From a bacterium (GTDB lineage Bacteria; Lernaellota; Lernaellaia; Lernaellales; Lernaellaceae): DNA of 40,172 bases. A program made the translations under genes and the position numbers. The notes beneath the pieces were generated by a model. That model was not told the origin of the DNA and did no database searches. It was given only the letters and a program-made list of their open reading frames with translations. The DNA lies in contig DAIMDW010000038.1 of assembly GCA_036725605.1 (NCBI GenBank), positions 1-40,172 on the forward strand. Direction: 5' to 3'. Positions 2,370-40,172 of this stretch are shown here, one piece after another (within the stretch, counting starts at the first letter, position 1; the number at the start of each line of letters is the position of its first letter).

Positions 2370-3215
2370 TCAGGAGCGAATCGCTTCCAGAAACAGCTCG
2401 TACAATTTTTGCGTAACCGGTCCGGGTCGGCCGCTGCCGATTTGGCGATCGTCGATGCGCAGTACGGGCGTCACCTCGGTGGTCGTTCCCGAAAGAATCA
2501 CCTCGTCGGCCGCATAAAGGCCCTCGCGCGTCACCCATTCCTCGCGTACGGCGATGCCGGCCTTTTCGGCCAGACCGATCAGGAAACGGCGGGTGATGCC
2601 CGGCAGAATCTTGTGGTTGGTCGGATGCGTAAACAGCGTATCGTTTTTAACGACGAAGATATTGCTGGAGGTGCCTTCAAGGACGCGCTCGTCCGCGCCG
2701 ATGAAAATCGCCTCGTAACAGCCCGCTTCCACCGCCTGCTGCTTGGCGAGCACGTTGGGCAGCAGGTTGGTCGTTTTGATGTCGACGCGGGCCCAGCGGA
2801 TATCCGGCACGGTGATGCAACCGACGCCGCGCGCGGCCAGTTCGGCTTCCTTGTGGGGAAACTCGCGCACGGTGATGATCACCGTCGGCTCCGGCCGTTC
2901 GGCGGGAAACGCATGCGAACGCGGGGCAACGCCGCGGCTGATTTGCAGGTAAACCATCGCCTTGGGCATCAAGGCGCTTTCGTAGGTTTTTTGTATCTGC
3001 TCGCCGACATCGGCGACGTCGATATATTCCAGGCGAATCTCGTTCAGGCTGCGCCGCAGTCGTTCAAGATGAGCATCGAACAAAAACAGTCGCCCGTTGT
3101 AGGCGGTGATCACCTCATACACCGCGTCGCCGAAACAAAAGCCTCGATCGTTGATGGAGACCGTCGCCTCGGCGAAAGGTAAAATGCGTCCATTGACATA
3201 GGCAATTTCCGGCAT
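2370..3215 (-). CDS. dat: Class IV (fold type IV PLP) aminotransferase, most similar to D-amino-acid aminotransferase (branched-chain aminotransferase not excluded)
   Basis: Length 281 aa. Motifs RGVAPR, DIRW.R.DIK..NLLPNVLAKQ.A.EAG..EAI, EGTSSN, THP.N.ILPGITR and GSGRPGPVT match the Dat/IlvE family. Confidence 0.8.
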   Translation of the reverse strand: MPEIAYVNGRILPFAEATVSINDRGFCFGDAVYEVITAYNGRLFLFDAHLERLRRSLNEIRLEYIDVADVGEQIQKTYESALMPKAMVYLQISRGVAPRSHAFPAERPEPTVIITVREFPHKEAELAARGVGCITVPDIRWARVDIKTTNLLPNVLAKQQAVEAGCYEAIFIGADERVLEGTSSNIFVVKNDTLFTHPTNHKILPGITRRFLIGLAEKAGIAVREEWVTREGLYAADEVILSGTTTEVTPVLRIDDRQIGSGRPGPVTQKLYELFLEAIRS

Positions 3216-3240
3216 CGAACGATTCCCTTTCTCACGGAAG

Positions 3241-3249
3241 TGTGGATAA
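3241..3249 (-). promoter_or_regulatory. Perfect DnaA box (TTATCCACA on the minus strand)
   Basis: Exact 9-mer match. Confidence 0.6.
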
Positions 3250-3394
3250 ATAAATTATATTGCGCAATTGTTTACCAACTATAATAAACCACATTAACTA
3301 TTAATCGTAACCTATTGTATTATAAAAACTATCTATGTCGATATAAAAGCTTAAATCGCACATTACGGCCATTTTCACAAAATCCTATGCTTTT

Positions 3395-3414
3395 TTATCC
3401 ACAGTTTATCCACA
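3395..3414 (+). promoter_or_regulatory. Two tandem perfect DnaA boxes (TTATCCACA gt TTATCCACA)
   Basis: Exact 9-mer matches at 3395-3403 and 3406-3414, 2 bp apart, in the same orientation. Confidence 0.6.
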
Positions 3415-3649
3415 AAAGGAAACACTGAAAAATCCATTTACCGTAAGTGCAAGAAAATTTCCAGTATTTAGACGATGGCCAAGCGGTTTTTGTTGCGAGA
3501 TTTTTTAATTCGGGGAGTTTATCTTCCTCGTGATTTAAATTAGACTACTTTGGTTATTGTTGTGGTGTTCATTAAAAAATCGATTCCCGCCGCGCCAATG
3601 ATCGGTTGGGCGTCGAACAAGAATTCGAGAAGGAAGGAGGTGAATGTAG

Positions 3650-4444
3650 GTGCGCTTCAAACTATTTTGGATCCTCATCCTTATCAGTCTGATGACGTTA
3701 AGCGTGTTCATGGCATGCGACGACGACGATGACGACGATAACGATGACAACGACGACGACGACAACGACGACGGCGACGATGATGACGACGACGATGATG
3801 ACGATGACACCGGTGACGATGATACCGGTGATGACGACACCGGCGATGACGACACCGGTGATGACGATACCGGCGACGACGATACCGGCGACGACGATAC
3901 CGGTGACGACGACACCGGTGACGACGACACCGGCGACGACGACACCGGCGACGACGACACCGGCGACGACGATACGGTAGAGATCGGCACGAACGTCGGG
4001 CAAAAAATGGCCGACTTCAACGTAACGCTCAGCGACGGATCCACCTTCAATCTTTACGAGCATGAGGGCACAGTCATCTTATTTGACACAGCCGGCATGT
4101 ACTGAGGCAGCTGTGCCTCTGACTCTCCCGGGTTGGAGAGTATATATCAGGATTACAAAGACGAAGGTTTCCTCGTTGTGCAGTTGATCGGCGCGGACTT
4201 CAACGGAAATTATCCGCAGTTGGATGATCTGATTGCCTGGATCGCTTACATCAAGTCGCAGTACGGGGCCACGATCACGTACAATGTCGCGGCCGATCCA
4301 TATTTCAATATCGGCAGCATGTACAACAAAACCGGATACATTCCGTATTACTGGCTGGTGGACCAGGATCTGGTGATCAACTACAAAGCCAGTTACCTGA
4401 ATCCGTTCCGCTCGAGAATCGAGACTTTACTGGGTCTTGAGTAG
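3650..4444 (+). CDS. Putative selenoprotein: lipoprotein with a poly-Asp/(TGDDD)11 acidic linker and a TlpA/redoxin-family thioredoxin-fold domain with a UxxC active site (in-frame TGA at 4103-4105 read as Sec)
   Basis: GTG start 9 nt after AGGAAGGAGG. Signal peptide plus a lipobox-like ...LSVFMAC. ORFs 3650-4105 and 4133-4444 are in the same frame, separated only by TGA. Read-through gives FDTAGMY-U-GSCASDSPGLESIYQDYKDEGF. This aligns with TlpA [28 protein letters not shown]. The rest of the fold (..APDF.L.D.dG....L.d..GK.V.L: KMADFNVTLSDGSTFNLYEHEGTVILF) and the YIPYYWLVDQDLVI (cis-Pro region) are intact. Hairpins lie immediately 3' of the TGA at 4104-4119 and 4122-4141. Confidence 0.55.
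3809..3973 (+). repeat. 11 tandem copies of a 15-bp coding repeat (ACCGGYGAYGAYGAY) encoding (TGDDD)11, preceded by a D/N-rich run
   Basis: Direct reading of the sequence. Copies differ only at synonymous third positions. The repeat keeps the frame. Confidence 0.9.
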
Positions 4445-9221: not shown

Positions 9222-9755
9222 TTACCGCACCAGATTGTTGAGCGCTTCACCGCGATTGTCGATCAATTCGGTCAGCGCGGCAATTTCCACCTGCAACGAA
9301 TCCATCGCCGCCTTCAGCGACTGGTCGTCGGTTTTCTCCTGGCCGAGCTTGGCGCAGGTCTCTTTGAACATCTCCACTTTGTCCAGAATCATCAGGTCGT
9401 AATCATAGAGCTTCTGCAACTCGGGTTCGAGGATTTTGTTGGCGTCGAACGCACCCGAATAGCCGTAGGCGTCGAAGCGATGCTTGTCGCGCAGGCGGTC
9501 GATTTTCGATGTCATCCGATCGACGTCGTCGAGCCAGGAAATTTTCATATCGTCCAGCAGCGCTTTTTTCAGGTTATCCAGACCGGTCTTGGCCGCATCG
9601 AGCTGCTTGGCGGAGTATTCGCGCAACAATTTATCGTTCTCGCGCAGTTTTTCCCGGTTCATGAAATCTTCCAAACCCGGAATTTTCGCCACCAGGTTTT
9701 TCATTCTGGTCAGAAAGTCGGGTTTCACATTTCCGTCGGCATCGCGATTGGTCAT
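9222..9755 (-). CDS. Hypothetical coiled-coil protein, co-operonic with the SPFH/SHOCT protein
   Basis: 177-aa ORF 11 bp upstream of the SPFH gene. Coding-like composition. I recognise no family. Confidence 0.45.
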   Translation of the reverse strand: MTNRDADGNVKPDFLTRMKNLVAKIPGLEDFMNREKLRENDKLLREYSAKQLDAAKTGLDNLKKALLDDMKISWLDDVDRMTSKIDRLRDKHRFDAYGYSGAFDANKILEPELQKLYDYDLMILDKVEMFKETCAKLGQEKTDDQSLKAAMDSLQVEIAALTELIDNRGEALNNLVR

Positions 9756-9904
9756 GATTGTCCTCCAAGGATAGAACTCTGCTAACCTCGTATCATATCA
9801 CCAAAGAGTCGGTCAATCCGAACACCTTGGAAATTCGCTGTCTTTCGCGGATCGTTTCGCCCATGAACCGTTGTACGGGAAGGCGTTGTTCCAATAATTT
9901 TTTA

Positions 9905-9948
9905 CCATTGTTTCCCCATTGACACAATGCATCATACAGAGTATATAT
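9905..9948 (+). promoter_or_regulatory. Sigma-70-type promoter (TTGACA-17 bp-TATATA) with an overlapping palindrome CATTGT-N10-ACAATG (candidate MarR operator)
   Basis: TTGACA at 9919-9924, TATATA at 9942-9947. Inverted repeat CATTGT/ACAATG and direct CCATTG repeats span the -35. Confidence 0.55.
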
Positions 9949-10422: not shown

Positions 10423-13098
10423 ATGCGCGCTTTGACACGACTCATGATCCGCTGGCCCTGGATCACGGTTGCCGTCATTCTCGGCATCACGGCTTTTTTT
10501 GCCTATCAACTTAAGTATGTGCGCATTGACAACGGCATTAAAAACTTCCTGCCGGAAATGCAGCAGGACAAACAGCAGTATTACCGCAGCGAGGAAATTT
10601 TCGGCAGCGAATCGGTCGCGGTGGTCGGTATCACCGCCGAGGACAAGGGCCCCTATCGCGACATATTCAATCCGGCCGCGCTGAAGATCGTCCAGGATCT
10701 GCACGACTGGTTCGAGGGGCTGGAGATCGAAGCGCCGGTGGAAAAAGCGTTGTGGATAAAGCCGGAGCGATTGGGTGAGGCAAGAAAGATCTTCGGCAAT
10801 CCGGACGGCCTTTGCTCCGAGGAGCAACTGGCCGCGCTCGAGAAGTTCGAGGAACCCGAGGATATCGAAGGTCACATTAAAATCACCGCCTGCAAGCACG
10901 TCGAAAGCACGATGATCGAAGACGTGACGAGCCTGGTGAGCATCAAGGACATCTACGACACCGAGGTGCCCTCCGCCGAAGTGGAAGGCGAGATGGAGCA
11001 CCAATTGATGATCGAGGACATGTGGGAGGACGTGCCGCAGACGCAGGAGGAAGCCGACCGCGTGCGCGAGCGCGTCAAGTCGTGGGATCTGTACGAGGAC
11101 AACATCGTCAGCCCGGATTTGAAGTCGACGGCGATTTACGTGTTCATCGACAGCCAGGTATCGATCGAGTACACGGAAAAACTGCAATCAATGATCGAAG
11201 AGAAAATCAACGAATTCGACAAGCCCGACGACGGACTGTTTTTCCAGACGGGCGGTACGCCGCTGTTGTTCGTCTGGCTGGGCATTTATCTGATGAACGA
11301 TTTGCTGACGCTCATTCCGTTCGTTTTCTTCGTGATCATCCTGGTGCTGTTCGCCAGCTTCCGCAATCCGACCGGCGTGCTGATGCCGGTGCTCACCGTC
11401 GCCTGCGGCTGTATCTGGTCGGTCGGCCTGACCGCCCTGATGAACAAGCCGCTGACGCTGCTGACCAGTTCGCTGCCCACCCTGATCGTCGCCGTGGGCA
11501 GCGCGTACACGATTCACATCATCCACAACTATTTCGCGCAACGGCAAGCCGGCCGCGACCGGCACGAGGCGATCATCGAGGCGATGGCCAAGGTCGGCAT
11601 GGCGGTGGTCATGGCCGGTCTGACAACCGTCGGCGGCTTCCTCTCGCTGGCCAGCAGCAGCGTGGTGCCGATCCGCGACCTGGGTCTTTTCGCCAGTTTC
11701 GGCGCGTTCGCCTCGTTGGTGATCAGTTGTTCGCTGGTGCCCGCCCTGCTGCAGATCACGGGCAAAAAGGGCGTCAAAGAAGTCGAGATAGACGCGGAGA
11801 ACGAAGCGGAACACGTGGCGCAGAATCCGGGCATGCTGGGCAAGCTTCTGGATTGGCTGGCGCGGTTCGTGGTCGAGCACAAGTGGTTGGTCTTCGGCGT
11901 CGGCGTGGTGCTGGTGGGCGTGGGCATCCTGCTGACCATGCAGGTGCGCGTAACCTCCGACCTGCTCAAGTACTTCAAGGAGGACAGCCCCATCCGGCAG
12001 ATGGACACGTACCTCAGCGAAAAATTCGGCGGGACGGACATGTTCTCGGTGGCCTTCGACGGCGGCGAGGAAAACTACTGGAAGGATCCCGCGCCGCTGC
12101 GCAAGATGGAAGCGCTGATCAACCACATCGACGAGCAGTTTCCGGTCATGCGCAAGAGCATGTCGATGGTCGATTACGTCAAGAAGATGAACATGGCGCT
12201 GCACTTCAACGATCCGCAGGAATTCCGCATTCCCGACACGGCGCAGGCGGTGGCCGACAGCCTGTTCCTCTTCCAGCAAAAAAGCGACTCGATGGAATCG
12301 ATGATCGATTTCGAATACCGTAAGGCGCGCGTCACCTTCAAGGTGACCGACGGCCAGACGGCGACCATGCGTAAAATCAAAAAGGCGATCGACCAGTGGC
12401 TGGCCGACAACTGGCCGGAGATGGCCGGCAAGCCGGCCCCGCGCATGAGCTTATGGCAGCACACGATGGAAATGGCCGGTTTCGTCGAGGAATCGCCGGC
12501 GTTCGTCGAGCAGCGCTACAGTTACTCGGGCGGCTCCTATCTACGTTACGTCGCCGACCGGTTGATCGTCATCGGGCAGATGCGCTCGATCTTCCTGTCG
12601 ATTCTCACCGTGTTCGTTCTGGCGATGCTCATCTTCCGCAGCATGGTGGGCGGCCTGCTGGCGATCGTACCCACGACGATGGCGGTGTTGGGCAACTTCG
12701 CCACAATGGCGGTCTTTGATCTGCCGCTGGACGTGGGCACGGCGCTGGTGTCGGCGGCCGCGGTGGGCATCGGCATCGACTACGCCATCCACTACATCAA
12801 CCGCTACCGCCTGGAGCGCATCGCCGGGGCCAAGGCGCCCTTGGCCGTGCGCTACACGCACCTGACCAGCGGCAAGGCGATCGTGTTCAACGCGACCGCG
12901 GTGGCCCTGGGCTTCTTCGTGCTGCTGTTCAGCAACTTCAATCCGGTCATGCGCATGGGGCTGCTGACGGGCATCACCATGTTCACGGCCAGCTTTATCT
13001 CATTGACGGCCCTACCGGTTTTGCTGGTATTGTTACGTCCGAAGTTCATCAGCAAAAACGCACCCAACAATAATTCGAGCAAGGGAGGCAATAAATGA
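10423..13098 (+). CDS. MMPL/RND-superfamily exporter (two 6-TM bundles with SSD-like regions)
   Basis: 891 aa. Duplicated TM blocks with large periplasmic loops. MMPL-type motifs (GxxxD..IHY, GLL.AI.PT). Confidence 0.85.
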   Translation: MRALTRLMIRWPWITVAVILGITAFFAYQLKYVRIDNGIKNFLPEMQQDKQQYYRSEEIFGSESVAVVGITAEDKGPYRDIFNPAALKIVQDLHDWFEGLEIEAPVEKALWIKPERLGEARKIFGNPDGLCSEEQLAALEKFEEPEDIEGHIKITACKHVESTMIEDVTSLVSIKDIYDTEVPSAEVEGEMEHQLMIEDMWEDVPQTQEEADRVRERVKSWDLYEDNIVSPDLKSTAIYVFIDSQVSIEYTEKLQSMIEEKINEFDKPDDGLFFQTGGTPLLFVWLGIYLMNDLLTLIPFVFFVIILVLFASFRNPTGVLMPVLTVACGCIWSVGLTALMNKPLTLLTSSLPTLIVAVGSAYTIHIIHNYFAQRQAGRDRHEAIIEAMAKVGMAVVMAGLTTVGGFLSLASSSVVPIRDLGLFASFGAFASLVISCSLVPALLQITGKKGVKEVEIDAENEAEHVAQNPGMLGKLLDWLARFVVEHKWLVFGVGVVLVGVGILLTMQVRVTSDLLKYFKEDSPIRQMDTYLSEKFGGTDMFSVAFDGGEENYWKDPAPLRKMEALINHIDEQFPVMRKSMSMVDYVKKMNMALHFNDPQEFRIPDTAQAVADSLFLFQQKSDSMESMIDFEYRKARVTFKVTDGQTATMRKIKKAIDQWLADNWPEMAGKPAPRMSLWQHTMEMAGFVEESPAFVEQRYSYSGGSYLRYVADRLIVIGQMRSIFLSILTVFVLAMLIFRSMVGGLLAIVPTTMAVLGNFATMAVFDLPLDVGTALVSAAAVGIGIDYAIHYINRYRLERIAGAKAPLAVRYTHLTSGKAIVFNATAVALGFFVLLFSNFNPVMRMGLLTGITMFTASFISLTALPVLLVLLRPKFISKNAPNNNSSKGGNK

Positions 13099-39651: not shown

Positions 39652-40172
39652 CTATACCGACGGACGATCCAAACTCCGATATTGAACCGCTTCGGCGATA
39701 TGCGCGGCCCGTACCCGTTCAGCGCCTTCCAAATCCGCTATCGTGCGGGCCACCTTGAGCACCCGCACCAGTCCGCGCGCCGACAATCCCAATTTGTCGT
39801 GCACCGTTTCCAGCAACCGATGACCGTCGGCCTCGGGTTCGGCGTGGCGCCAGGTCATGCGGTTGGTCATTTGCGCATTGGTGGAAATGCCGTGGCCGAC
39901 AAAGCGTTTCATGGCGTGCAGGCGCGCCTGCTGCACCCGGGCGCGCACCGCGGCCGACGATTCGCCGCCGCCGGTACGCATTTCGCGATAGCGGACGGCC
40001 GGCACTTCGACATGCAGGTCGATACGATCCAGCAGCGGCCCGCTCAGACGGTTGCGGTAGCGTTGAATCGCCTGCGGCGAGCAGGTGCAGTGATGCAGTG
40101 GATCGCCCAGATAGCCACAAGGGCATCCCACCCCTTCACAGGTACAGCAAATTACAAACCAGAACCGCATGT
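39652..40172 (-). CDS. yifB: Mg-chelatase-like AAA+ ATPase YifB/ComM (C-terminal part; continues beyond the window)
   Basis: The C-terminal Cys cluster and the ChlI/YifB C-terminal helical domain (RVLKVARTIADLEG...) are recognisable. Confidence 0.8.
   Translation of the reverse strand, partial: MRFWFVICCTCEGVGCPCGYLGDPLHHCTCSPQAIQRYRNRLSGPLLDRIDLHVEVPAVRYREMRTGGGESSAAVRARVQQARLHAMKRFVGHGISTNAQMTNRMTWRHAEPEADGHRLLETVHDKLGLSARGLVRVLKVARTIADLEGAERVRAAHIAEAVQYRSLDRPSV

What the first reader, a model, noticed from the sequence alone, without database searches (positions are those of the whole stretch)
3216..3649. AT-rich island with three perfect DnaA boxes: candidate oriC or DnaA-binding control region
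In a background of roughly 67% GC this 430-bp spacer is about one third GC. It contains TTATCCACA exactly three times: 3241-3249 on the minus strand, and a tandem pair at 3395-3403 and 3406-3414. Chance occurrence of three exact 9-mers in 430 bp is negligible. Perfect DnaA boxes next to A/T-rich unwinding-type tracts (TTTTTTAATT, ATTAAAAAAT, TATAAAAACTATCTATGTCGATATAAAAGC) are the defining signature of bacterial replication origins and of DnaA-titrating or DnaA-regulated sites. No dnaA/dnaN is in the window, so an origin here would be in a non-canonical gene context. Alternatively, the island may have been imported along with the adjacent low-GC selenoprotein gene.
Basis: seen in the sequence. 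Interest (0 to 1): 0.6.

Follow-up and report, generated by a model that had tools for sequence, protein, structure and literature searches.

The report
Conserved DnaA-box triad, probably not an origin
Three perfect binding sites for the replication initiator DnaA sit between two back-to-back genes and are conserved in related uncultured bacteria; they look like a DnaA-controlled gene switch rather than the chromosome's replication origin.

Summary
TTATCCACA occurs exactly at 3241-3249 (-), 3395-3403 (+) and 3406-3414 (+), in a 434-bp spacer of 36% GC. The window averages 61% GC, not 67%. Chance expects 0.004 boxes in the island (P(>=3) about 1e-8).

The spacer separates divergent genes: a D-amino-acid transaminase (2370-3215, -) and a lipoprotein selenoprotein redoxin (3650-4444, +). 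Two related species keep the same gene order and all 27 box bases. The 145-bp AT-rich core between the boxes drifts at the neutral rate without changing length.

The origin reading is not supported:
- 84.9 kb assembled around the island holds no dnaA, dnaN, gyrB, parAB, gidA or rpmH.
- GC skew shows no origin-type switch; cumulative G-C peaks near the island, within noise.
- Gene strands are about 50/50 on both sides.
- There is no further conserved box and no DnaA-trio beside any box.

Best reading (0.5): a non-origin DnaA-box cluster acting as a DnaA-dependent operator, and incidentally a DnaA sink, for the two promoters. A replication origin keeps about 0.1. This is a new member of a known kind, of modest interest.

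The parts
2370..3215 (-). D-amino-acid transaminase gene (dat), transcribed leftwards away from the island
   Evidence: Pfam Aminotran_4, E 2.7e-52. NCBIfam TIGR01121 D-amino-acid transaminase scores 283 bits against a cut-off of 277.45. NCBI names it D-amino-acid transaminase, HPQ71673.1.
3216..3240 (-). dat leader with a Shine-Dalgarno-like AAGGGA (3229-3224), 8 nt before the ATG
   Evidence: Read from the sequence. Identity among the three species is 88-96%.
3241..3249 (-). DnaA box 1: exact TTATCCACA pointing towards dat, 25 nt upstream of its ATG
   Evidence: Identical in L005 and L006.
3250..3394 (.). AT-rich core (27% GC) between the boxes. Its sequence drifts at the neutral rate but its length is the same in all three species. 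It holds a conserved minus-strand TATAAT (3324-3319) and a conserved 11-mer ATTTTCACAAA (3371-3381).
   Evidence: Identity is 0.61-0.68 (one species pair 0.82) over 3301-3394, against 0.67-0.79 at four-fold sites of the dat gene. Box-to-box start distances are 154 and 165 bp in every species. Promoter-like hits on the minus strand; alignment A1. GC.
3395..3414 (+). DnaA boxes 2 and 3: two exact TTATCCACA head to tail with a 2-bp spacer (11-bp period), pointing towards the selenoprotein gene
   Evidence: (family D4). Both 9-mers are identical in all species; the only change is in the spacer.
3432..3480 (+). Strongly conserved block of unknown role (CATTTACCGTAAGTGCA...TTTCCAGTAnTTAGACGA); candidate operator or upstream promoter
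   Evidence: Identity 0.86-0.92, above the neutral yardstick.
3518..3546 (+). Candidate promoter of the selenoprotein gene: TTTATC, 17 bp, TAGACT. Both hexamers are invariant and the 17-bp spacer varies.
   Evidence: Read from alignment A1. This is an inference; the consensus scan did not report it.
3568..3649 (+). Conserved leader of the selenoprotein mRNA, with a predicted hairpin pairing GUUCAUU with the GGUGAA of the ribosome-binding site
   Evidence: fold_alignment gives -19.0 kcal/mol and 22 pairs, none with a compensatory change. Identity 0.81-0.90.
3650..4444 (+). Lipoprotein-type selenoprotein of the AhpC/TSA-redoxin fold, with an Asp-rich linker, an in-frame TGA at 4103-4105 (U-G-S-C motif) and a hairpin downstream of it
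   Evidence: Translation. Pfam AhpC-TSA and Redoxin. TGA and hairpin are invariant in three species.

Best explanation
The island is a high-affinity DnaA-binding module outside the replication origin. It lies in the shared control region of two divergently transcribed genes: dat, which supplies D-amino acids for the cell wall, and a periplasmic selenocysteine redoxin.

Shown: there are three consensus 9-mers, and selection holds exactly those 27 bases and the distance between them while the DNA in between drifts. Box 1 lies 25 nt upstream of the dat start codon, in its leader or core promoter. The head-to-tail pair with a 2-bp spacer lies upstream of the conserved promoter-like elements of the selenoprotein gene.

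Inferred: DnaA binds box 1 as a monomer and the pair cooperatively. Box 1 then acts as a roadblock or promoter occluder for dat. The pair modulates the rightward promoter. DnaA molecules at the two sites may contact each other and loop out the flexible 145-bp AT-rich core, which carries the conserved leftward TATAAT. Expression of both genes would then follow the level of active DnaA, that is, the replication cycle or growth state. The site would also hold back a few DnaA molecules as a by-product.
For: - The boxes are exact and far beyond chance.
- All three are 100% conserved in two other species, whose dat gene differs at 21-33% of four-fold sites. Conservation stops at the edges of the 9-mers.
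- Box spacing of 154/165 bp is unchanged across species.
- The 2-bp spacing of the pair falls within the at most 3 bp allowed between paired boxes at origins (PMC8287927). That this spacing supports cooperative DnaA-DnaA contacts is my own knowledge.
- The island is a divergent promoter region with conserved -10-like and -35-like hexamers and a conserved leader.
- Precedents exist. DnaA represses or activates genes next to its boxes in E. coli, and B. subtilis has intergenic DnaA-box clusters that regulate their neighbours (PMC2533591; PMC3245932; PMC5742627).
- The origin tests came out negative (see the rival explanations).
Against: - No promoter is mapped, and the promoter assignments rest on sequence alone.
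- DnaA of this organism was not seen, so its box specificity is assumed from the near-universal consensus.
- Only three species are available, all close relatives.
- There is no obvious reason why these two genes should follow DnaA.
- The absence of indels in the core is not statistically compelling. The rest of the island has 2 indels in 235 bp, which predicts about 1.2 in the core and P(0) about 0.3.
- The extreme AT-richness of the core is not explained by a plain operator model.
Confidence: 0.5

Rival explanations
1. The island is a replication-control element like E. coli datA or the B. subtilis and Streptomyces DnaA-box clusters. Its main job would be to bind DnaA, or change its nucleotide state, and so set the timing of initiation. 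Effects on the neighbouring genes would be secondary.
For: - Three highest-affinity boxes lie in non-coding DNA and are conserved with fixed spacing.
- The layout of an adjacent pair, a long AT-rich gap and a third box recalls minimal datA: boxes 7 and 2, an IHF site, then box 3 (PMC5742627).
- B. subtilis clusters both regulate their neighbours and restrain initiation (PMC3245932).
Against: - Three boxes are few. The B. subtilis clusters hold 4-8 boxes within about 50-100 bp (A > 0.3). Here the fourth nearest box is about 800 bp away, giving A of about 0.04.
- The essential datA boxes all point the same way; here box 1 is inverted.
- No IHF-like site is conserved in the gap.
- Whether the locus is near the origin, as such elements usually are, is unknown.
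Confidence: 0.15
2. The island is the chromosomal replication origin (oriC) of this uncultured lineage, in a gene context without dnaA or dnaN.
For: - Three perfect boxes and a 27%-GC stretch sit in a 61%-GC genome.
- A tandem pair plus a distal box 145 bp away, in either orientation, resembles the minimal B. subtilis arrangement of boxes 6/7 plus a distal box (PMC6669920).
- Some origins are not next to dnaA; E. coli's is 42 kb away (PMC3245932).
- 15% of predicted origins lack DnaA-trios (PMC8287927).
Against: - 84.9 kb around the island holds no dnaA, dnaN, gyrB, recF, parAB, gidA, rpmH or rnpA.
- GC skew is +0.004 +/- 0.007 on the left and -0.009 +/- 0.006 on the right. Cumulative G-C has its maximum, not its minimum, near the island.
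- With the coding-strand effect cancelled, the third-position skew is +0.013 on the left and 0.000 on the right.
- Gene strands are 6+/7- on the left and 15+/16- on the right.
- No run of three NTN or NAN triplets lies within 16 nt on the 3' side of any box in any species, apart from runs made of the neighbouring box's own bases and one marginal three-triplet NAN run in L006 alone, not conserved in the other two species.
- There are only three boxes.
- Both box sets point away from the AT-rich core. This orientation argument rests on my recollection of the E. coli and B. subtilis origin sequences.
- Box 1 abuts a ribosome-binding site.
- The region 3' of the pair is a conserved promoter and leader rather than free AT-rich DNA.
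Confidence: 0.1
3. The 9-mers are operators for a different DNA-binding regulator, for instance a response regulator that reads 11-bp direct repeats. Their identity with the DnaA consensus is coincidental.
For: Direct repeats with an 11-bp period are typical of OmpR/PhoB-type operators (my own knowledge). The organism has many two-component systems.
Against: - All three copies match the DnaA consensus at 9 of 9 positions.
- Conservation is confined to the asymmetric 9-mer, and the tenth base varies in L006.
- The third copy is a lone inverted 9-mer 145 bp away, which fits a protein that reads a single asymmetric site.
- No regulator gene adjoins the island; the nearest, a MarR, is 6 kb away.
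- DnaA would bind such sites anyway.
Confidence: 0.1
4. The island is a remnant of foreign or mobile DNA, such as a plasmid or phage origin imported with the low-GC selenoprotein gene, and has no present function.
For: The island and the first half of the selenoprotein gene have low GC.
Against: - The same gene order occurs in three species.
- Selection is visible on the boxes against a neutral background.
- There are no iterons, no rep gene, no integrase and no flanking repeats.
- blastn finds no match in 72,556 plasmids or 50,697 phages.
- The low GC of the gene comes largely from its Asp-codon repeats.
Confidence: 0.03

Closest known systems
DnaA-box clusters outside oriC in Bacillus subtilis (sda, ywlC, yydA, ywcI-vpr, gcp-ydiF, thdF-jag)
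   Same: Both are intergenic clusters of consensus DnaA boxes conserved among related species. They sit next to genes whose expression DnaA controls, and they can also restrain initiation (PMC2533591; PMC3245932).
   Different: The Bacillus clusters have 4-8 boxes packed within about 50-100 bp, most of them imperfect. This island has only three boxes, all perfect, split as 2 + 1 across 145 bp. The neighbouring genes are unrelated to the Bacillus ones. Binding has not been tested here.
DnaA-regulated promoters of E. coli (dnaA, mioC, nrdAB, rpoH, uvrB, proS, polA)
   Same: One to three DnaA boxes lie in or beside a promoter or leader, and DnaA acts as repressor or activator (list in PMC2533591).
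   Different: The regulated genes differ: dat and a selenoprotein redoxin. The promoter positions here are only inferred. A box trio of fixed spacing bridging a divergent promoter pair is not a described arrangement, as far as I know.
E. coli datA (DnaA-ATP hydrolysis locus)
   Same: Both are non-coding and a few hundred bp long, with an adjacent box pair, a long gap and a further box (PMC5742627).
   Different: The essential datA boxes share one direction and need an IHF site in the gap. Here box 1 is inverted and no IHF-like site is conserved.
Bacterial oriC with the basal unwinding system (B. subtilis incC type)
   Same: Both have a tandem pair of boxes no more than 3 bp apart, a distal box at 130-460 bp in either orientation, and AT-rich DNA nearby (PMC6669920; PMC8287927).
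   Different: The island has no DnaA-trios, no origin gene context, no skew switch and too few boxes. The DNA 3' of the pair is a conserved promoter and leader.
E. coli DARS1/DARS2
   Same: Three DnaA boxes form the core element (PMC5742627).
   Different: DARS depends on head-to-head boxes I and II lying close together. Here the adjacent pair is head to tail, and the inverted box is 145 bp away.

Membership tests
Chromosomal replication origin (oriC) | Cluster of DnaA boxes | tested here: met
   Three exact boxes lie within 174 bp. There are only three, and no further conserved box with up to 2 mismatches.
Chromosomal replication origin (oriC) | DnaA-trio array (at least 3 triplets within 0-16 nt of a box) leading into an AT-rich unwinding element | tested here: not met
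   Rules taken from PMC8287927. In the canonical configuration (NTN triplets 3' of the box, on the box strand) there is no run in any species. In the other configurations the only runs are made of a neighbouring box's own bases, or are single three-triplet runs too short to count. About 15% of predicted origins also lack trios.
Chromosomal replication origin (oriC) | GC-skew sign switch (cumulative minimum) at the site | tested here: not met
   Over 84.9 kb the skew is +0.004 on the left and -0.009 on the right, and cumulative G-C has a maximum near the island. The strand-corrected third-position skew gives the same picture. The amplitude is within noise, so a genome with almost no skew cannot be excluded.
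Chromosomal replication origin (oriC) | Adjacent origin-linked genes (dnaA, dnaN, gyrB, parAB, gidA, rpmH and the like) | tested here: not met
   None is found from window -35.5 kb to +49.3 kb. PriA lies 11-14 kb to the left but is not an origin marker.
Chromosomal replication origin (oriC) | Genes diverging from the site, co-oriented with replication | tested here: not met
   6+/7- on the left and 15+/16- on the right.
Chromosomal replication origin (oriC) | Read-depth peak, autonomous replication, or DnaA-dependent unwinding | not testable with these tools
   This needs read mapping on the full MAG or wet-lab assays.
DnaA-box cluster outside oriC (Bacillus type) | Intergenic cluster of boxes conserved among relatives | tested here: met
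DnaA-box cluster outside oriC (Bacillus type) | At least four successive boxes at high density (A > 0.3, Ishikawa 2007) | tested here: not met
   Only three boxes are present. The next box with up to 1 mismatch is at 4210, giving A of about 0.04 (criterion).
DnaA-box cluster outside oriC (Bacillus type) | DnaA occupancy in vivo and an effect on neighbouring genes or on initiation | not testable with these tools
   The organism is uncultured and no ChIP or expression data are available.
DnaA-regulated promoter | Consensus box overlapping or next to promoter or leader elements of the regulated gene | tested here: inconclusive
   Box 1 is 25 nt upstream of the dat ATG. The pair is about 105 bp upstream of a conserved TTTATC-17-TAGACT. 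A conserved TATAAT lies at 3324-3319. No transcription start is mapped.
E. coli datA | Essential boxes in one direction with an IHF site between them | tested here: not met
   Box 1 is inverted. No conserved WATCAANNNNTTR site lies in the core.
E. coli DARS | Closely spaced head-to-head boxes I and II plus box III | tested here: not met
   The adjacent pair is head to tail.

The most novel reading that the evidence does not exclude
The island is the true chromosomal origin of an unclassified, uncultured bacterial lineage. It would be a minimal origin with three perfect boxes, no DnaA-trios, no dnaA or dnaN nearby and almost no GC skew. It would be embedded in the promoter region of a cell-wall D-amino-acid gene and a selenoprotein gene.
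Probability: 0.1. Interest if true: 0.6.

Novelty: new member of a known kind. Interest (0 to 1): 0.3.

Why it matters
DnaA acts both as replication initiator and as a transcription factor. Conserved DnaA-box clusters away from origins are documented mainly in a few model organisms.

This is a clean, selection-backed example from an unclassified uncultured lineage. It suggests that DnaA level may be coupled to the supply of D-amino acids for peptidoglycan and to a periplasmic selenocysteine redoxin.

It also cautions origin-finding pipelines that rely on boxes plus AT-richness: three perfect boxes in the window's longest AT-rich spacer need not be an origin. If the island did prove to be the origin, it would be an unusually minimal one in a non-canonical context.

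Tried and rejected
- **DnaA-trio search.** I searched on both sides and both strands of each box in three species. Nothing convincing came up: the only runs were neighbouring-box bases or isolated three-triplet runs.
- **Extra weak boxes (up to 2 mismatches).** The few found are not conserved.
- **IHF-like site in the core.** None apart from overlaps with the boxes themselves.
- **Repeats, iterons and 13-mer-like repeats.** The only notable items are the box pair and a non-conserved 11-nt inverted repeat at 3499-3509 / 3571-3581.
- **Known RNA families.** None in the island at gathering or E <= 1 thresholds. The hits inside the Asp-codon repeat are spurious.
- **Conserved small ORFs in the island.** None; the ATG at 3475 is lost in L005.
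- **Plasmid and phage similarity.** None.
- **Broader comparison.** The genome and metagenome scans found only two other species with the island. Homologues at 49% identity or less have no boxes upstream.
- **The MAG's own 680,862-bp contig next to the window.** Its proteins are in the protein collection but the contig is not on record for look-ups. I walked through other assemblies instead, to -35.5 kb and +49.3 kb.
- **Finding this lineage's dnaA.** Not feasible with these tools, because collection-wide searches cannot be restricted to one genome.
- **Sigma-54 promoter.** I read the island by eye for a GG-N10-GC motif and the spacing does not fit.

Full report
**Observation**

The window reads TGTGGATAA at 3241-3249, which is TTATCCACA on the minus strand. 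It reads TTATCCACAGTTTATCCACA at 3395-3414.

Dinucleotide-preserving shuffles of the whole window expect 0.05 exact boxes, and 4 are present. The fourth lies inside a gene at 10751. A first-order Markov model built from the island's own AT-rich composition expects 0.004 boxes, giving P(>=3) about 1e-8.

The island has 36% GC, and its core at 3250-3394 has 27%. The island is the longest and, apart from one 60-bp spacer at 0.35, the most AT-rich intergenic spacer in the window; the others range from 0.35 to 0.75.

**Context**

The island is a divergent spacer between two genes.

- On the left is a class-IV aminotransferase gene (2370-3215, minus strand). It passes the NCBIfam equivalog cut-off for D-amino-acid transaminase.
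- On the right is a gene (3650-4444, plus strand) for a lipoprotein-type protein. It has a long Asp-rich linker and an AhpC/TSA-redoxin domain, with an in-frame TGA in a U-G-S-C motif.

The rest of the window encodes ordinary chromosomal functions: carbamoyltransferase, lipoate ligase, an MMPL transporter, acyl-CoA dehydrogenase, isocitrate dehydrogenase, a histidine kinase with a sigma-54 activator, SecA2 and glycosyltransferases. It holds no tRNA, rRNA or known RNA family.

The window is a complete 40,172-bp contig of an NCBI third-party MAG labelled only '[bacterium]'. The same DNA occurs in several anaerobic-digester-type metagenome assemblies.

**Comparative evidence**

Scans of 185,579 species genomes and of the metagenome collection found only two other species that carry the locus. 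Their transaminases are 92% (L005) and 85% (L006) identical to the window's protein. L071 is a near-identical contig of the same species as L006. The next homologues are 49% identical or less and have no boxes upstream.

Gene order is the same in all three species: PKD protein, OmpA-like protein, dat, island, selenoprotein, carbamoyltransferase.

In the three-way alignment I used four-fold degenerate sites of dat as a neutral yardstick, at 67-79% identity. Against that yardstick:

- The three 9-mers are 100% identical.
- The one difference inside 3395-3414 falls in the 2-bp spacer.
- Conservation stops at the edges of the boxes.
- The core at 3301-3394 is at the neutral level (61-68%; one species pair 82%).
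- 3432-3480 (86-92%) and 3581-3649 (81-90%) are constrained.

The start-to-start distances between box 1 and the pair are 154 and 165 bp in every species. The core has therefore taken many substitutions but no net length change. This is suggestive only: the indel rate in the rest of the island predicts about one event in the core.

**Is it an origin?**

I extended the sequence through other assemblies of the same organism, to 35.5 kb left and 9.2 kb right of the window, 84.9 kb in all. The tests gave these results.

- **Gene content.** No dnaA, dnaN, recF, gyrB, parAB, gidA, rpmH or rnpA is present. The left flank carries priA, def, fmt, rsmB and rpe along with signalling and envelope genes.
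- **GC skew.** It is +0.004 +/- 0.007 on the left and -0.009 +/- 0.006 on the right. Cumulative G-C reaches its maximum, not a minimum, about 3 kb from the island.
- **Strand-corrected skew.** Averaging the third-position skew of plus-strand and minus-strand genes cancels the coding-strand effect. The result is +0.013 on the left and 0.000 on the right. An origin with a typical skew of 0.02 or more would be 3-4 standard deviations away on each side. A genome with almost no skew cannot be excluded.
- **Gene strands.** They are 6+/7- on the left and 15+/16- on the right.
- **DnaA-trios.** The published search rule for the basal unwinding system asks for a box, a spacer of 0-16 nt and at least three triplets with a fixed middle base (PMC8287927). 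No such run lies 3' of any box in any species in the canonical NTN configuration. Hits in the other configurations consist of the neighbouring box itself or are single three-triplet runs; one of these, a NAN run 3' of the second box, occurs in L006 only and is not conserved. By the same paper, 85% of predicted origins have this module.
- **Further boxes.** No additional box with up to 2 mismatches is conserved.
- **Box orientation.** Both box sets point away from the AT-rich core, towards the two genes. In E. coli (DUE then R1) and B. subtilis (boxes 6/7, then trios, then the AT-rich element), the unwinding element lies on the 3' side of TTATCCACA. That orientation rests on my recollection of those sequences.
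- **DNA flanking the boxes.** On the 3' side of box 1 is the ribosome-binding site of dat, 25 nt from the ATG. On the 3' side of the pair is a conserved promoter and leader region.

One resemblance to an origin remains. A tandem pair plus a distal box 130-460 bp away, in either orientation, is the minimal functional layout of B. subtilis incC (PMC6669920). Some origins also lie far from dnaA. I keep the origin reading at about 0.1.

**What it most likely is**

The three units are asymmetric 9-mers identical to the highest-affinity DnaA site. One of them is alone and inverted. This fits a protein that reads single 9-bp sites, which is DnaA, and not a dimeric regulator. The 2-bp spacer of the pair falls within the at most 3 bp allowed between paired boxes at origins; that this spacing supports cooperative head-to-tail DnaA contacts is my own knowledge.

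The positions fit an operator role.

- Box 1 lies in the dat leader or core promoter.
- A TATAAT conserved in all three species (3324-3319, minus strand) would put box 1 about 65 nt into the transcript, where it could act as a roadblock.
- The pair lies upstream of two conserved modules: 3432-3480, and TTTATC-17-TAGACT at 3518-3546. In the second, both hexamers are invariant while the spacer varies.
- These are followed by a conserved leader that can fold so as to cover the ribosome-binding site (no covariation).

I therefore read the island as a non-origin DnaA-box cluster that ties expression of dat, the selenoprotein gene, or both, to the level of active DnaA. A DnaA-DnaA bridge across the fixed-length, flexible AT-rich core is possible. 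Holding back a few DnaA molecules would be a side effect.

The steps shown are the boxes, their selective conservation, their spacing and their position relative to the genes. DnaA binding, the direction of regulation and looping are inferred.

**Comparison with known systems**

- **B. subtilis intergenic DnaA-box clusters.** These are the closest match. They regulate their neighbours (sda, ywlC, yydA) and restrain initiation (PMC2533591; PMC3245932). By the published density criterion (four successive boxes, A > 0.3) this island does not qualify, at about 0.04. It works like them but is smaller.
- **E. coli DnaA-regulated promoters.** Also close, as listed.
- **datA.** Its layout is similar, but it needs same-direction boxes and an IHF site, and neither is found here.
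- **DARS.** It needs head-to-head adjacent boxes, which are absent here.

**Other readings**

- A plasmid or phage origin or other foreign remnant is unlikely. There are no iterons, no rep gene and no database match, and gene order is conserved.
- A different regulator that shares the motif cannot be excluded. It would require a 9/9 coincidence three times over.

**Verdict**

This is a new member of a known kind, of modest interest at 0.3. The decisive tests are simple once the full MAG is in hand: locate dnaA, compute skew on the 680-kb neighbouring contig, and look for a read-depth peak.

Noticed in passing
window 3650-4444 (TGA at 4103-4105; hairpin 4122-4141): The gene right of the island looks like a genuine selenoprotein. 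An in-frame TGA sits in a U-G-S-C redox motif of an AhpC/TSA-redoxin domain. It is followed by a hairpin, CUCUCC-CGGGUU-GGAGAG, 17 nt downstream. The TGA and the hairpin are invariant in all three species. The protein has a lipoprotein-type signal peptide.
   Followed up: partly
window 3718-3972: An Asp-rich linker is encoded by tandem 15-nt repeats (GACGACGACACCGGC, giving DDDTG, about 11.5 copies) after a run of Asp/Asn codons. The repeat region differs between species, and gene calls differ between assemblies (137 versus 151 aa), which suggests copy-number variation. It also produces spurious microRNA-like Rfam hits.
   Followed up: partly
window 10751-10759 (-): A fourth exact TTATCCACA lies about 330 nt into the MMPL transporter gene, downstream of a MarR gene. 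Chance expects 0.05 exact boxes in the whole window, so even this one is mildly unexpected. Its conservation in other species could not be checked because their contigs are too short.
   Followed up: no
window 3568-3646: The leader of the selenoprotein mRNA can form a hairpin in which the conserved GUUCAUU pairs with the GGUGAA of the ribosome-binding site, enclosing a second GC-rich stem. It is conserved in three species but has no compensatory changes. It may be a translational control element.
   Followed up: partly
window 3371-3381, 3468-3474 and 3540-3546: Three short elements are conserved and unexplained: an 11-mer ATTTTCACAAA 13 bp upstream of the box pair, and two TTAGAC(G/T) modules 72 bp apart.
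   Followed up: no
window left end (1-614) and right end (39652-40170); L158 10949-13229: Several independent assemblies break at the same two places. One is inside the PKD-metallophosphatase gene at the left end. The other is at a truncated ComM/Mg-chelatase-like gene (172 aa) at the right end. Beyond the right end, one assembly carries a 1-kb gap in gene calls and then a D12-class (Dam-like) adenine methyltransferase. This suggests strain-variable or inserted DNA at a ComM site.
   Followed up: partly
L151 2877-5411 (about 11-14 kb left of the island): The priA gene (replication-restart helicase) lies near the island, next to def, fmt, rsmB and rpe. I take this as a coincidental housekeeping cluster. 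It is not an origin marker.
   Followed up: partly
window 9756-9926: A second AT-richer divergent spacer (46% GC) separates a LIMLP_15305-family gene from a MarR-type regulator gene. A one-mismatch box, TTATCCAGA, lies just inside the neighbouring gene at 9574.
   Followed up: no
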